DNA from: Candidatus Doudnabacteria bacterium
GTDB lineage: Bacteria; Patescibacteriota; Doudnabacteria; UBA920
Direction: 5' to 3'
Length of the DNA stretch: 64,000 bases
NCBI GenBank assembly: GCA_963768175.1
Contig: CAVYGQ010000001.1
Location: 5,908-69,907 of the forward strand
The position numbers and the translations under genes were made by a program. Of this stretch, positions 26,862-29,822 are shown in pieces; within the stretch, counting starts at the first letter, position 1; every line of letters begins with the position of its first letter. The notes beneath the pieces were generated by a model. It was not told where the DNA came from, made no database searches, and was given only the letters and a program-made list of their open reading frames with translations.

Positions 26862-29822
26862 ATGAATAAATATAATTTTAGTAAGATCGAAAAAAAATGG
26901 CAGTCTTATTGGTCAAAGAAAAAAATTTTTTTGGCCAAGGATTTTAGCAAAAAGCCCAAGAAATATATCTTGGTGGAATTTCCGTATCCCAGCGGCGCGG
27001 GGCTTCATATGGGGCATTTAAGGCCTTATGTGGCGGCCGATGTTTATACCAGATACAGCAGAATGAAGGGTTACGAGACTTTGTTTCCCATCGGCTGGGA
27101 CGCATTTGGCTTGCCCGCGGAAAATTACGCCATTAAAATGGGCGTGCATCCCTCCAAGACTACGGCGCAAAACGTTAAGAATGCCAAGAAGCAAATGCAG
27201 TCTTGGGCGCTTTCTTTTGACTGGAGCCGCGAAATTAATACCACGGACCCGAATTATTATAAATGGACTCAGTGGCTGTTTTTGCAATTTTACAAAAAGG
27301 GTTTGGCTTACGAAGCCACGGGTTTGATTAACTGGTGCCCTAAAGATAAAACCGGTTTGGCCAATGAAGAAGTGATCGATGGAAAATGTGAGCGTTGCAG
27401 CACGACCGTGGAAAAAAAAGAATTGCGCCAGTGGTATTTAAAAATTACCGCCTACGCGGAAAAATTATTGGAAGGACTTAAAAATTTGCCCGACTGGCCG
27501 GAACCGGTCAAGCTCCAGCAGGAGAATTGGATTGGCAAAAGCGTGGGCGCGGAAATAGATTTTATGCTTGTCCAGCCGCTGGTCAAGAGGTTTGTAATTC
27601 TACACGGGAGGGACGGCTCATCACGTAAAAATTTTACCCCTTGGCTCAAAAAAGAACTTGAGTTGCGCGGATTTGAAGTTCAGGCCCCAGATATGCCAAG
27701 TCCGGATATGCCGAATGATGTTCAGCAGGCCGAATTTGTTAAAAATAATTGTAAGTTAGACGAGCAAACCGTTATCATTGGCCATTCTTTTGGCGGGGTG
27801 GTAGCGTTGCGTCTTTTGGAGCAGGGAATTAAAGTTAACCGGACGGTTTTAGTATCAACCCCTTATAGCGGGAAGTTTTTGGACGGCAAGGAGAGGCCGA
27901 CTGTTGCCGCGGCGGTAAAAAAAGGTTTTGATTTTGGGTTCATTAAAAAACAAAAAGCATGTTTTAGCCTTTTGTATGATTTGGGCGATTATGTGGTGCC
28001 GATGTCCGATGGCGAGGAATTTGAGAAGCATACCGGCTTTGGGGTATTAAAAGCCAAAGCTCAGCAGCCGCATTTTAGTGCCAACGAGGAACCGGAAGTG
28101 CTGTCGGTAGCTTTAGGAGCCGTAAGAGTTTTTACCACCAGGCCGGATACGATTTTTGGAGCCACTTATTTGGTATTGGCGCCGGAGCATCCGGTGGCTC
28201 GCGCCACTGCCATGCAGGTCTCCAATTCCGCGGAGGTTTTAAAATATATTGAAGAGGCAAAAAATAAGACAGACATCCAGCGTTCGGCGACTGAAAAAGA
28301 CAAAACAGGCGTGGAGTTAAAGGGTGCGTTCGCGATTAATCCGGCCACCAAAGAAAAAATTTCTATTTGGGTGGCGGATTATGTGCTTTGGGTCTATGGC
28401 ACGGGTGCGATTATGGCCGTGCCCGCGCATGATGAAAGGGATTATGCATTTGCTAAGAAATATCAGCTGCCAATCAAGAGGGTCGTGGTTCCTAAAGGGT
28501 ATTTCGCAAAAGACGACTTTTATACAGGACCTGGCATACTTAAAGATTCGGATGATTTTAGTAATTTAGACTCTGAAGTTGCTATTCCTAAAATGGCAAA
28601 GGAGTTTGGCAAACCGGCCACACAATATAAACTGCGCGATTGGGTATTTTCCAGGCAAAGATATTGGGGCGAGCCGATCCCAATTATCCATTGTCCGAAG
28701 TGCGGGATTGTGCCCGTGCCGGACAAGGACTTGCCGGTAAAGCTTCCGCCGGTTAAAAATTATCAGCCGACCGGGACCGGGGAGTCGCCTTTGGCGGCAG
28801 TCAGCAAATGGGTAAATGTTAAATGTCCGGCCTGCAAATCTTCAGCTAAAAGGGAAACTAATACCATGCCAAATTGGGCAGGGTCATCGTGGTATTGGCT
28901 AAGGTATACCGACCCCAGAGATAAAAAATCTTTTGCCGATTTGCAAAAGCAAAAATACTGGACGCCGGTGGACGTGTATTTTGGCGGAATGGAGCACACC
29001 ACCTTGCATTTACTTTACTCAAGATTTTGGAATTTGTTTTTGTATGATCAAAAGTTGGTAACGTCGCGCGAGCCATACGCCTTGCGCAAGCCGCACGGCA
29101 TTATTTTAGGGCCGGACGGCGAGAAAATGTCCAAGAGCCGCGGCAATGTGGTCAATCCGGACGATATAGTCAAATCTTACGGTGCAGATACTTTAAGGAT
29201 GTATGAAATGTTTTTGGGCCCGCACGAAGATGCCATAGCCTGGAACGGCGAGAGCGTGATTGGCGTGAAGCGGTTTTTGGATAGGGTGTGGAATTGGGTA
29301 AGCGAAGTTGCGGGTGGCAAGTTGTTGGTCGAAAGTGATTCGGAAAAGGTTGCCCGTGCTTTAAATAAGCTGATAAAAAAAATTACCGAAGACATTGAAA
29401 ATTTCCATTTTAATACGGCCATTTCGGCGTTTATGGAATTCCATAATGAGGTTAAAGATGAGCCAATATCTGTGGAATCCATCAAAACATTTTTAAAATT
29501 ACTCTATCCGTTCGCGCCGTATATTTCGGAAGAACTAAATCAGCTTGTTGGCAAAACGCGCGGCCGCGCAAAAAGTCAACAATCCTTGCAGCTGGAAAAC
29601 TGGCCGGCTTTTGACCCGTCAAAAATTGTTGATGCCACTGTGGAAATTGTCGTGCAGATTAACGGCCGTGTTAAAGCCAAGCTGGCCGTGGATGCCGGCA
29701 GCAGTCAGCAACAAGTAAGCGCTAAAGCACAGGAGCTGAATGTAGTTAAGCAGGCTTTAATGAACAAAAGTATCAAGCGAATAATTTTTGTGCCAGGCAG
29801 GCTGATAAATTTTGTTATATAA
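26862..29822 (+). CDS. leuS: Leucyl-tRNA synthetase, carrying an internal ~185-aa YdeN/RBBP9-like alpha/beta serine-hydrolase domain insertion (about 27568-28126)
   Basis: HMGH and KMSKS class I motifs and a full-length LeuRS. Between ...[11 protein letters not shown] and [15 protein letters not shown] lies [23 protein letters not shown]...IIGHSFGG..., which resembles YdeN (VYIIHGY..FPWLKKRL.., GHSLG). Confidence 0.9.
   Translation: [986 protein letters not shown]

What the first reader, a model, noticed from the sequence alone, without database searches (positions are those of the whole stretch)
27568..28126. leuS encodes a leucyl-tRNA synthetase with an embedded YdeN/RBBP9-type serine hydrolase domain
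The ORF is an otherwise canonical LeuRS (HMGH, KMSKS, CP1 region ...[12 protein letters not shown]...). Between the catalytic-core strand ...[12 protein letters not shown] and RVFTTRPDT (adjacent in E. coli LeuRS) lies a ~185-aa block [36 protein letters not shown]...[19 protein letters not shown]...YDLGDYVVP... This aligns well with the YdeN/RBBP9 alpha/beta-hydrolase family (VYIIHGY..FPWLKKRL..., GHSLG nucleophile elbow). It has no intein-like termini, and the reading frame is continuous. I know of no description of an aaRS carrying an esterase/hydrolase module at this position. It could be a trans-editing or deacylase-like accessory, or a selfish domain insertion.
Basis: partly seen in the sequence, partly recalled or inferred. 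Interest (0 to 1): 0.8.

Follow-up and report, generated by a model that had tools for sequence, protein, structure and literature searches.

The report
Serine hydrolase nested inside leucyl-tRNA synthetase
The enzyme that charges tRNA with leucine in this uncultured (Doudnabacteria-like) bacterium carries a complete, apparently active serine-hydrolase enzyme inserted in one of its surface loops, and related organisms keep the same hydrolase at other positions in, or right next to, the same gene, which points to an undescribed partner enzyme of the translation machinery.

Summary
Confirmed. Window 26862-29822 (+) encodes a 986-aa bacterial-type LeuRS with HMGH, KMSKS and an intact CP1 editing site. 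Residues 238-422 (nt 27573-28127) are a complete YdeN/RBBP9-family serine hydrolase (Ser309, Asp376, His404) nested in the first hairpin of CP1.

It is not an assembly artefact. About 100 of the 120 closest LeuRS relatives, many named Candidatus Doudnabacteria or Patescibacteria, have the same insert at the same site.

The same hydrolase clade also occurs at three other positions in LeuRS. It also occurs as a separate gene abutting bacterial-type and archaeal-type leuS, and inside ValRS, AlaRS, Der, TsaD, SecA and UvrB. The catalytic Ser and His are intact in every embedded copy examined. Presence and position are nevertheless labile among close relatives.

It is not an intein, and it shows no hallmarks of a DNA mobile element.

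The closest characterised relative, RBBP9, hydrolyses alpha-aminoacyl amides and esters. My best reading is an accessory alpha-aminoacyl hydrolase partnered with LeuRS. Its substrate is inferred, not shown.

Nine searches of the held paper library found no published description. Novelty: new variant of a known kind. Interest: 0.72.

The parts
26862..29822 (+). leuS ORF, 986 aa, bacterial-type leucyl-tRNA synthetase with a nested hydrolase
   Evidence: ORF list. TIGR00396 991 bits. Full-length model pLDDT 86.7, matching LeuRS structures 2BTE, 4AQ7 and 7NU3 with TM 0.77-0.83 normalised to the target.
27006..27017 (+). HMGH (HIGH-type) class I signature, aa 49-52
   Evidence: Read from the sequence. 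H49, G51 and H52 are invariant in the 80-sequence alignment A1.
27546..27563 (+). GAEIDF strand (aa 229-234), the first strand of the CP1 hairpin and the upstream boundary of insertion site 1
   Evidence: Strand 226-236 in the model. Flank mapping gives 234|423 in about 37 cluster representatives.
27573..28127 (+). Nested YdeN/RBBP9-family serine hydrolase domain, aa 238-422 (aa 235-237 form a short linker)
   Evidence: Pfam PF06821, PF00561 and PF12697. HMM envelope. Profile against PDB. Model and fold searches.
27603..27608 (+). His248-Gly249, the HG motif after strand 1 (predicted oxyanion-hole region)
   Evidence: At least 90% conserved in A1 and 98-99% in the domain alignment. The oxyanion-hole role is inferred from general alpha/beta-hydrolase knowledge.
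27780..27797 (+). Nucleophile elbow GHSFGG (aa 307-312); the catalytic Ser309 codon is 27786-27788
   Evidence: Ser is invariant in 73 of 73 embedded copies and in A1. It aligns with RBBP9 Ser75 and the YdeN AHSLG motif.
27987..27989 (+). Catalytic Asp376 in [10 protein letters not shown]; Asp373 at 27978-27980 is also conserved
   Evidence: Both are at least 90% conserved in A1. They align with the DDP motif of RBBP9 and YdeN. In copies lacking the second Asp, an Asp or Glu sits three residues upstream.
28071..28073 (+). Catalytic His404 (PHF motif)
   Evidence: Invariant in 72 of 72 embedded copies and in A1. It aligns with the GHF motif of YdeN and RBBP9.
28128..28631 (+). CP1 editing domain proper (aa 423 to about 590), with TTRPDT at 28134-28151 and the AHDERD Asp524 at 28431-28433
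   Evidence: PF13603 190 bits, starting at profile position 22. Motifs read from the sequence. T425, T426, R427, T430, H523 and D524 are invariant in A1.
28491..28535 (+). Position equivalent to insertion site 4 (aa 544|558, a loop inside CP1); empty in this window
   Evidence: The hydrolase sits here in P0243, and a second copy sits here in P0207. A NUDIX domain sits here in many relatives.
28701..28706 (+). Position equivalent to insertion site 2 (aa 614|615, just after the HCPKC zinc knuckle); empty in this window
   Evidence: The hydrolase sits here in L001, L005/P0054, P0249, P0259 and about nine other cluster representatives.
29124..29138 (+). KMSKS signature, aa 755-759
   Evidence: Read from the sequence; invariant in A1.
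29334..29339 (+). Position equivalent to apparent insertion site 3 (aa 825|826, a loop in the anticodon-binding domain); empty in this window
   Evidence: In L003/P0002 the hydrolase is followed in frame by residues matching aa 826-986. The contig is cut upstream, so nesting is inferred.

Best explanation
**What it is (shown)**
- It is a complete, lid-less alpha/beta serine hydrolase of the YdeN/RBBP9 family, about 185 aa, with Ser309, Asp376, His404 and an HG motif.
- It is nested in the tip of the first beta-hairpin of the CP1 editing domain of an otherwise normal bacterial-type LeuRS.
- It folds as an autonomous domain whose two ends meet at the hairpin, so LeuRS keeps its own fold, its synthetic motifs and its editing motifs.
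- The architecture is inherited and typical of Candidatus Doudnabacteria and other Patescibacteria.

**How it most likely works (inferred)**
- The domain is an accessory enzyme selected to act together with LeuRS.
- Like RBBP9, it attacks an alpha-aminoacyl carbonyl (ester, thioester or amide) of a substrate with a free alpha-amine and an aliphatic side chain, through an acyl-Ser309 intermediate.
- The most likely substrate class is aminoacyl species generated at LeuRS. Candidates are mischarged or surplus aminoacyl-tRNA(Leu), released non-cognate aminoacyl-adenylate, or its by-products.
- On this reading it is an extra clean-up or proofreading activity working in trans to the CP1 site.
- The domain works from several attachment points and also as a separate co-transcribed protein. 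It therefore needs proximity or co-expression, not a fixed geometry.
For: **Identity and fold**

**Catalytic competence under selection**
- Ser is present in 73 of 73 embedded copies and His in 72 of 72.
- Asp is at the canonical column in 74%. Most of the rest have an Asp or Glu three residues upstream.
- S309, G311 and H404 are invariant across 80 LeuRS sequences, although the domain is on average only 44% identical to the window's copy.

**Host intact**
- HMGH, KMSKS, TTRPDT and HD(E)RD are all present.
- The LeuRS fold is preserved.

**Real and inherited**
- L004 is an independent short-read Doudnabacteria MAG with the same gene order and an intact 1032-aa ORF.
- About 100 of the 120 closest relatives have the insert at site 1, on contigs up to 1.2 Mb.
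- 15 of 21 metagenome loci found with a domain motif have it nested at site 1.

**Linkage to LeuRS in many arrangements**
- Nested at site 1, site 2, site 4 and apparently site 3.
- As a separate gene 2-6 nt upstream of leuS in L006 and L007-9.
- As a separate gene 2 nt downstream of leuS in L012.
- One ORF away from leuS in L026.
- Abutting archaeal-type leuS in L028, L037 and a JGI contig.

**Family chemistry**
- RBBP9 is a serine aminopeptidase that requires a free alpha-amine (PMC8866121).
- RBBP9 is cited as a valacyclovir (L-valyl ester) hydrolase (reference in PMC7730578).
- The YdeN relative ML-005 is a short-chain esterase (PMC6119806).
- Close relatives are nested in ValRS and AlaRS.
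Against: - No activity or substrate was tested, so the link to aminoacyl-tRNA or aminoacyl-AMP is inference.
- The CP1 editing site is intact in most hosts, so there is no obvious missing editing function to supply.
- The domain is dispensable:
  - 14 of the 120 closest LeuRS lack it;
  - three syntenic insert-free loci have no adjacent copy;
  - insert-free genes are scattered through the LeuRS core tree.
- Relatives of the same clade also sit inside Der, TsaD, SecA and UvrB, and are fused to adenylate kinase and Ham1. These hosts have nothing to do with aminoacylation.
- The residue equivalent to the amine-binding Glu108 of RBBP9 (E344 here) is not conserved in the clade.
- I could not obtain model coordinates, so the distance from Ser309 to the editing and synthetic sites is unknown.
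Confidence: 0.45

Rival explanations
1. **Leucine-supplying aminopeptidase.** The domain removes N-terminal hydrophobic residues from imported peptides, as RBBP9 does. It is co-expressed with, or tethered to, LeuRS so that an organism unable to make amino acids feeds its most-used synthetase.
For: - RBBP9 is an aminopeptidase that needs a free alpha-amine.
- More distant family members are fused to Peptidase_S51 dipeptidase domains (P0101, P0106).
- The linkage to leuS is equally compatible with this reading.
- That Patescibacteria depend on scavenged amino acids is general knowledge about the group, not tested here.
Against: - Covalent tethering gives little benefit for a small diffusible product. 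Even so, nesting arose or was kept at several sites.
- The S51 fusions lie outside the LeuRS-associated clade in the domain tree.
- Nothing tested ties the specificity to leucine.
Confidence: 0.2
2. **Autonomous house-cleaning enzyme that merely lodges in LeuRS.** In these small genomes, compact single-domain enzymes (YdeN-like, NUDIX, GNAT, HAD, methyltransferase) become nested in permissive loops of abundant essential proteins. They gain expression and retention, and have no functional coupling to the host.
For: - The same clade is nested in Der, TsaD, SecA, UvrB, ValRS and AlaRS.
- LeuRS relatives also carry nested NUDIX, GNAT, HAD and methyltransferase domains.
- Fusion partners are typical damage-control enzymes: Ham1, glyoxalase and HD.
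- The domain sits at several sites in LeuRS, is often lost, and is dispensable.
- Site 1 also accepts an unrelated small repeat element.
Against: - Three of the four free-standing close relatives whose neighbourhood was first examined abut leuS, on either side.
- Further copies abut an archaeal-type leuS of separate descent. This is hard to explain without a LeuRS-specific link.
- The count of LeuRS hosts is inflated because the query itself came from a LeuRS.
Confidence: 0.2
3. **Immunity module against aminoacyl-adenylate-mimic antibiotics that target LeuRS.** The hydrolase cleaves the aminoacyl-nucleotide bond of such inhibitors, as MccF does for processed microcin C. The NUDIX and GNAT inserts in relatives would attack the nucleotide and the alpha-amine.
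For: - The set of domains nested in LeuRS relatives is serine hydrolase, GNAT and NUDIX. From my own knowledge, these match the chemistries of the known resistance enzymes MccF and MccE.
- NCBIfam curates an IleRS with a GNAT domain (NF040702, listed).
- A patchy, labile distribution is typical of resistance traits.
Against: - There is no homology to MccF (the S66 family); the domain is YdeN-like.
- No toxin or transporter genes were seen near leuS.
- This reading is entirely by analogy.
Confidence: 0.08
4. **Selfish mobile domain.** The 0.56-kb segment spreads by inserting in frame into essential genes, and survives only where the host protein tolerates it.
For: - Its distribution resembles that of inteins: several sites in leuS and several essential hosts.
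- Presence and absence vary among close relatives.
- The [hydrolase-CP1] segment of the window is replaced by a divergent [CP1-hydrolase] segment in a genome that is otherwise 75-90% identical.
- True small in-frame repeat elements exist in this genome.
- A DUF559 endonuclease-like gene lies just upstream.
Against: - There are no terminal repeats or target duplications beyond chance.
- The insert carries no mobility gene.
- The window holds a single copy.
- Composition equals that of the host gene.
- Copies are as diverged as CP1 itself (44% against 52% identity).
- The triad is never decayed, which a passive passenger would not maintain.
Confidence: 0.06
5. **Artefact.** A chimeric assembly, a mis-called fusion of two genes, or an intein that is spliced out of the mature protein.
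For: - No read-level data were available for this window.
- Several related long-read contigs (L001, L002) are full of frameshifts.
Against: - More than 100 independent assemblies from different projects give the same in-frame architecture, including short-read MAGs and contigs of 0.7-1.2 Mb.
- LeuRS sequence continues on both sides within one domain.
- There is no Hint/intein match, and there are no Cys/Ser/Thr or His-Asn junction residues. The junctions read DF|MLV and VR|VFT.
Confidence: 0.01

Closest known systems
RBBP9 (human) and YdeN (Bacillus subtilis), Pfam PF06821 Ser_hydrolase / COG3545
   Same: - Same Ser-Asp-His triad and GxSxG elbow.
- Same order of secondary-structure elements.
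   Different: - Those are free-standing proteins; here the domain is nested inside another enzyme.
- Identity is only 23-27%.
- RBBP9 prefers aromatic residues. Its cage residues F140 and L141 correspond to V378 and V379 here.
- Its amine-binding Glu108 is not conserved in this clade.
LeuRS CP1 cis-editing domain and free-standing trans-editing factors (AlaX, YbaK/ProXp, DTD, CtdA)
   Same: On the preferred reading, a hydrolytic module associated with a synthetase that removes unwanted aminoacyl species. Like the known factors, it exists both fused and free-standing.
   Different: - The fold and chemistry are unrelated: a covalent serine hydrolase rather than the CP1, YbaK, DTD or B3/B4 folds.
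- None of the listed papers from the editing search mentions an alpha/beta hydrolase.
- Deacylase activity is not shown here.
Synthetases with extra enzyme or accessory domains: IleRS with a GNAT domain (NCBIfam NF040702) and domain-appended eukaryotic aaRS
   Same: An essential class I synthetase that has gained an additional catalytic domain in some lineages.
   Different: - Here the added domain is a serine hydrolase.
- It is nested inside CP1 rather than appended at an end.
- It changes position between close relatives.
Inteins
   Same: In-frame insertions in conserved parts of essential housekeeping proteins, with patchy distribution.
   Different: - No Hint fold.
- No splicing junction residues.
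- No homing endonuclease.
- The insert is predicted to remain part of the mature protein.
Rickettsia-palindromic-element-like in-frame repeats
   Same: This genome does contain short repeats with terminal inverted repeats that are read in frame inside genes. In a relative, one fills the same LeuRS hairpin.
   Different: The hydrolase insert has no terminal repeats, encodes a full enzyme, and is single-copy in the window.

Membership tests
YdeN/RBBP9 serine hydrolase family (PF06821) | Sequence match to the family model above its curated cut-off, over the whole domain | tested here: met
   - PF06821 scores 27.7 bits against a cut-off of 22, but only over profile positions 1-93.
- A clade profile matches YdeN (2.4e-40) and RBBP9 (1e-34) over positions 3-184 of 188.
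YdeN/RBBP9 serine hydrolase family (PF06821) | Minimal lid-less alpha/beta-hydrolase fold of about 180 residues | tested here: met
   - Model pLDDT 92.9.
YdeN/RBBP9 serine hydrolase family (PF06821) | Ser-Asp-His triad with GxSxG elbow | tested here: met
   S309, D376 and H404 align with the family motifs and are conserved in the clade.
YdeN/RBBP9 serine hydrolase family (PF06821) | Recognition of a free alpha-amine (RBBP9 Glu108) and alpha-aminoacyl hydrolase activity | tested here: inconclusive
   - E344 aligns with Glu108 in the window, but the column is not conserved in A1.
- D341 is conserved nearby.
- Activity cannot be tested with these tools.
Bacterial-type leucyl-tRNA synthetase (TIGR00396) | Equivalog model score above cut-off; HIGH and KMSKS motifs | tested here: met
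   991 bits against a cut-off of 548. HMGH at aa 49-52 and KMSKS at aa 755-759.
Bacterial-type leucyl-tRNA synthetase (TIGR00396) | CP1 editing domain inserted after the first zinc module, with the threonine-rich motif and the conserved Asp | tested here: met
   PF13603 190 bits. TTRPDT at aa 425-430 and HD at aa 523-524, invariant in relatives.
Bacterial-type leucyl-tRNA synthetase (TIGR00396) | Overall LeuRS fold | tested here: met
   Foldseek against PDB finds 2BTE, 4AQ7 and 7NU3 with TM (target) 0.77-0.83.
Inteins | Hint domain and splice-junction residues (N-terminal Cys/Ser/Thr; C-terminal His-Asn followed by Cys/Ser/Thr) | tested here: not met
   No Hint/intein family appears in Pfam or NCBIfam. 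The junctions are ..IDF|MLVQ.. and ..GAVR|VFTT...
Known aminoacyl-tRNA trans-editing factors (AlaX, YbaK/ProXp, DTD, CtdA) | Homology to one of the established editing folds | tested here: not met
   The only matches are to alpha/beta hydrolases.
Known aminoacyl-tRNA trans-editing factors (AlaX, YbaK/ProXp, DTD, CtdA) | Hydrolysis of mischarged tRNA | not testable with these tools
   This needs biochemistry. Only the genomic linkage to leuS supports it.
DNA mobile element (MITE, IS or homing element) | Terminal repeats or target-site duplication, a mobility gene, and several similar copies in the genome | tested here: not met
   - No repeats beyond chance at the ends.
- One copy in 64 kb.
- Composition equals that of the host gene.

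The most novel reading that the evidence does not exclude
The YdeN-like clade found here is a previously unrecognised, LeuRS-dedicated quality-control enzyme. It would be an alpha/beta-fold serine hydrolase that deacylates mischarged tRNA(Leu), or destroys non-cognate aminoacyl intermediates. That would make it a new structural class of translational proofreading factor. It has been recruited repeatedly, nested at several sites or co-transcribed, to both bacterial-type and archaeal-type LeuRS. It is also the most visible case of a wider habit of these reduced genomes of nesting small enzymes inside housekeeping proteins.
Probability: 0.25. Interest if true: 0.85.

Novelty: new variant of a known kind. 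Interest (0 to 1): 0.72.

Why it matters
**For synthetase biology**
- Synthetases are among the most conserved enzymes, and their editing modules belong to a handful of known folds.
- A catalytically intact serine hydrolase that stays with LeuRS across a whole candidate phylum suggests an undescribed partner activity in translation. It appears nested at four sites, or as an abutting gene, even next to archaeal-type LeuRS.
- The hypothesis is directly testable with a recombinant protein and an S309A control.

**For the YdeN/RBBP9 family**
- This gives a concrete functional lead for the bacterial members, which have no known physiological role.

**For genome annotation and protein evolution**
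- Essential proteins of Patescibacteria act as hosts for nested small enzymes (hydrolase, NUDIX, GNAT, HAD, methyltransferase).
- This matters for annotation, because some of these LeuRS are named "alpha/beta fold hydrolase" in public records.
- It also matters for understanding how domain insertion evolves.

Tried and rejected
- **Misassembly.** Rejected on independent assemblies and on composition.
- **Intein.** Rejected: no Hint match and no junction residues.
- **DNA mobile element.** A search for terminal direct or inverted repeats at the insert ends gave only chance-level matches. The window has no second copy.
- **Hydrolase replaces a dead CP1 editing site.** Rejected as a general rule. 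TTRPDT is intact in 113 of 138 site-1 hosts, 6 of 8 site-2 hosts and 14 of 17 hosts without a nested copy. Only the variants TTWPHT (P0054, P0249) and DSVPQT (L006, L012) hint at it.
- **An adjacent hydrolase gene always accompanies insert-free LeuRS.** Rejected: none at L013-L015.
- **GTDB genome scan.** Single-sequence patterns found only one species representative, so the scan was too insensitive for a census.
- **Organism names for the non-LeuRS hosts.** The cluster look-up returned none.
- **AFDB fold search.** The library was unavailable.
- **Geometry.** No coordinates or PAE could be retrieved, so where the hydrolase packs relative to the editing and synthetic sites stays unanswered.
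- **Literature.** Nine searches found no description of this architecture. The held library is incomplete, so this is not proof of absence.

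
Full report
**1. The observation**

Window 26862..29822 (+) is one uninterrupted ORF of 986 aa. It is a bacterial-type leucyl-tRNA synthetase. NCBIfam TIGR00396 scores 991 bits against a cut-off of 548, and the match falls in two stretches that skip residues of about 235-420. Pfam finds the class I catalytic domain at aa 12-224 and the LeuRS editing domain PF13603 at aa 420-581. 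The PF13603 match starts only at profile position 22. Pfam also finds the anticodon-binding domain.

HMGH (aa 49-52), KMSKS (755-759), the CP1 threonine-rich motif TTRPDT (425-430) and the conserved AHDERD (522-527) are all present.

Its coordinates (27568-28126) agree with the domain envelope I obtained, aa 238-422 or nt 27573-28127.

**2. Is the block a YdeN/RBBP9 hydrolase?**

With the single sequence, the Pfam hits (PF00561, PF12697, PF06821) are only just above their cut-offs. They cover only the N-terminal half of the models. On its own that would leave open a truncated or decayed domain. Four further results settle it:

- A phmmer search of PDB sequences gives RBBP9 at 1e-9 and YdeN at 2e-6.
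- A profile of the insert plus free-standing relatives matches YdeN (2.4e-40) and RBBP9 (1e-34) end to end. The GHS-G, D-P and GHF motifs are in register.
- An AlphaFold model of the insert is very confident (pLDDT 92.9, pTM 0.91).

The triad is Ser309 (in GHSFG), Asp376 and His404.

In the full-length model (pLDDT 86.7, pTM 0.77) the hydrolase is the best-predicted part, at 90-97. It is bracketed by strands 226-236 and 420-425, which are the two strands of the CP1 hairpin. The rest of the model superposes on solved bacterial LeuRS structures with TM 0.77-0.83 normalised to the target.

**3. Artefact?**

No.

- The insert has the same composition as the rest of the gene (GC 0.465 against 0.455; third-position chi-square p=0.60).
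- A GTDB representative genome, a short-read MAG of Candidatus Doudnabacteria, has the same gene order: TatD, leuS, Sua5, an MFS transporter. Its intact 1032-aa LeuRS is 65.5% identical and has the hydrolase at the same place.
- Among the 120 closest LeuRS in the large protein collection (54-75% identity), about 100 have the domain at this site. Many are named Candidatus Doudnabacteria or Patescibacteria group bacterium, and some come from contigs of 0.7-1.2 Mb.
- A motif-based scan of metagenome contigs gave 21 loci, of which 15 have it nested at the same site.
- There is no Hint/intein match and there are no splice-junction residues.

The window is therefore most likely from a Doudnabacteria-like member of the Patescibacteria (CPR), and the architecture is typical of that lineage.

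**4. What the surroundings and relatives show**

*Several sites.* Mapping flanks onto the window's LeuRS gives the following sites.

| Site | Boundary (window aa) | Location | Where seen |
|---|---|---|---|
| 1 | 234\|423 | first CP1 hairpin | about 37 representatives of 50%-identity clusters |
| 2 | 614\|615-619 | just after the zinc knuckle that follows CP1 | about 12 representatives, plus L001 and L005 |
| 4 | 544\|558 | a loop inside CP1 | P0243, and a second copy in P0207 |
| 3 (apparent) | before aa 826 | anticodon-binding domain | L003; the contig is cut upstream |

Tandem copies at site 1 occur in L002 and P0262.

*Mosaic genes.* The window and L005 are collinear at 75-90% nucleotide identity over 17 kb. 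Inside leuS, detectable similarity stops at 27539 and resumes at about 28713, apart from one 68-nt match. The window has [hydrolase-CP1] there. L005 has a divergent [CP1-hydrolase], with CP1 only 36% identical.

*Labile presence.* In a tree of the LeuRS core, the 14 insert-free genes fall at about ten separate places among site-1 genes. The site-2, site-4 and adjacent-gene forms are scattered too. Insert-free genes have the ordinary 11-14-residue hairpin, or a low-complexity loop.

*Free-standing copies next to leuS.* The closest free-standing relative, P0028 (49% identical), is encoded 2 nt upstream of an insert-free leuS (L006).

- P0037 is 6 nt upstream of leuS (L007-9).
- P0042 is 2 nt downstream, between leuS and Sua5 (L012).
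- L026 has one unknown ORF between the hydrolase and leuS.
- P0031 is not linked to leuS, on short contigs.
- In L028, L037 and one further contig, a member of the clade abuts an archaeal-type leuS. NCBIfam leuS_arch scores 468 bits, against 107 for leuS_bact.

Starting instead from three insert-free syntenic leuS genes, no adjacent hydrolase was found. The partner is therefore linked when present, but it is not obligatory.

*Other hosts.* Relatives in the same broad clade are nested in ValRS (P0070, P0139), AlaRS (P0097), Der/EngA (P0074), TsaD (P0079) and SecA (P0052). More distant ones are nested in UvrB, or fused end to end with adenylate kinase, Ham1, Peptidase_S51, glyoxalase, HD and a nucleotidyltransferase.

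*Other guests.* LeuRS relatives also carry nested NUDIX, GNAT, HAD or methyltransferase domains.

**5. Selection on the domain**

- In an HMM alignment of 174 copies, the nucleophile Ser is present in 73 of 73 embedded copies and the His in 72 of 72.
- The Asp is at the canonical column in 74%. Nearly all the others have an Asp or Glu three residues upstream.
- In 80 site-1 LeuRS, S309, G311 and H404 are invariant. H248, G249, D373 and D376 are at least 90% conserved.
- The domain as a whole averages only 44% identity to the window's copy. CP1 averages 52% and the catalytic core 77-80%.

A passive or selfish spacer would not be expected to keep a triad intact at this divergence. The domain is lost cleanly rather than left to decay.

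**6. Mechanism**

*Shown.* This is an autonomous, catalytically competent serine hydrolase domain on a flexible surface hairpin of a functional LeuRS. It is genetically linked to LeuRS in many independent arrangements.

*Taken from established knowledge of the family.*

- RBBP9 forms an acyl-enzyme on Ser75 with hydrophobic amino acids. It removes N-terminal residues only when the alpha-amine is free (PMC8866121).
- RBBP9 is also cited as the enzyme that activates valacyclovir, an L-valyl ester of a nucleoside analogue.
- YdeN-like ML-005 is a short-chain esterase, and YdeN lacks a lid. That suggests soluble esters or thioesters as substrates (PMC6119806).

*Inferred.* The LeuRS-associated clade hydrolyses an alpha-aminoacyl ester, thioester or amide that arises at, or is needed by, LeuRS. 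I favour a clean-up or proofreading role on aminoacyl-tRNA(Leu) or released aminoacyl intermediates, for three reasons:

- Covalent tethering was gained or kept at several sites.
- The linkage extends to a LeuRS of separate descent.
- ValRS and AlaRS are also hosts.

The variable attachment point argues against precise docking to the CP1 pocket. It fits a tethered enzyme that works in trans.

*Weak points.*

- CP1 is intact in most hosts.
- The domain is dispensable.
- Several hosts are not synthetases.
- No geometry could be extracted.

I put about 0.9 on the structural and evolutionary statement. I put about 0.45 on a LeuRS-coupled aminoacyl hydrolase as the function. The leucine-supplying aminopeptidase and the uncoupled lodger enzyme are the main rivals.

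**7. Comparison with what is known, and novelty**

- The domain is a member of the YdeN/RBBP9 family. All testable defining features are met, and specificity is untested.
- The host is a member of the bacterial LeuRS family.
- The combination is not an intein, not a known trans-editing factor, and not a recognisable mobile DNA element.
- Synthetases with extra domains are well known, and NCBI curates an IleRS with a GNAT domain (listed). The kind is therefore known.
- A serine hydrolase nested in CP1, conserved across a candidate phylum and moving between sites and adjacency, was not found in any paper across nine searches of the held library.
- Public records carry these proteins only with automatic names, some of them misleading, such as "alpha/beta fold hydrolase" and "class I tRNA ligase family protein".

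I rate it a new variant of a known kind. It is of high interest to people who work on synthetase editing and on CPR biology. It has a realistic chance of revealing a new class of translational quality-control enzyme.

Noticed in passing
window 25818-25912, 18511-18587, 15098-15175; L005 13670-13800: A small MITE-like repeat of 77-95 nt has 13-nt terminal inverted repeats, GGCGTCATYCTGA...TCAGRATGACGCC. The window holds three copies where none is expected by chance. Two lie inside ORFs. In TatD the element is read in frame as [32 protein letters not shown]. Nearly the same peptide fills the site-1 hairpin of the LeuRS relative P0243.
   Followed up: partly
window 15782-15813, 18558-18574, 26824-26840, 30412-30443, 52959-52973, 54453-54469, 62120-62136: Short GC-rich palindromes of the form CCGCC-WWW-GGCGGA give 15 strand matches against 0.1 expected. 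Some lie within the repeat above. The one at 30412-30443 is inside the Sua5/YrdC ORF and is read as AKGGSASGG, a segment absent from the L004 orthologue.
   Followed up: partly
window 26296-26676: A 126-aa DUF559 (Vsr-like endonuclease fold) gene sits between TatD and leuS and overlaps the TatD stop codon. This slot is empty in L004 and holds unrelated small ORFs in L005 and L006.
   Followed up: no
window 24934-24993 (inside the MetRS ORF 23755-25275): A 9-nt tandem repeat of 6.6 copies encodes SPISPISPISPISPIS inside methionyl-tRNA synthetase.
   Followed up: no
P0045, P0078, P0083, P0132, P0041, P0179, P0194, P0203, P0273; L002 2750-3750: LeuRS of related Patescibacteria carry other nested enzyme domains: NUDIX (often at window-equivalent aa 544|558 inside CP1), GNAT, HAD and SAM-methyltransferase. 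These often occur together with the hydrolase.
   Followed up: partly
P0054, P0249 and L001/L005 (TTWPHT); L006 and L012 LeuRS (DSVPQT): Two groups of LeuRS have a degenerate CP1 threonine-rich motif. The DSVPQT group is the one with a free-standing hydrolase gene abutting leuS, which may hint at a link between editing loss and the hydrolase.
   Followed up: partly
window 71-2560 and 2488-8082: Two large ORFs of 829 and 1864 aa have no Pfam match at E<=1e-4.
   Followed up: no
window 26741-26761 and 26815-26849 (intergenic region upstream of leuS): Two strong palindromes lie here: CCCTCTCCCTAAGGGAGAGGG and CCCTCCTTCGTCCGCCTTTGGCGGACTTCGGAGGG. The second ends 12 nt before the leuS start codon. 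Similar sequences occur in L005 at about 16915-17271.
   Followed up: no
L026 2001-3230: A 409-aa ORF with no NCBIfam match separates the free-standing hydrolase gene from leuS. It may be an inserted element.
   Followed up: no
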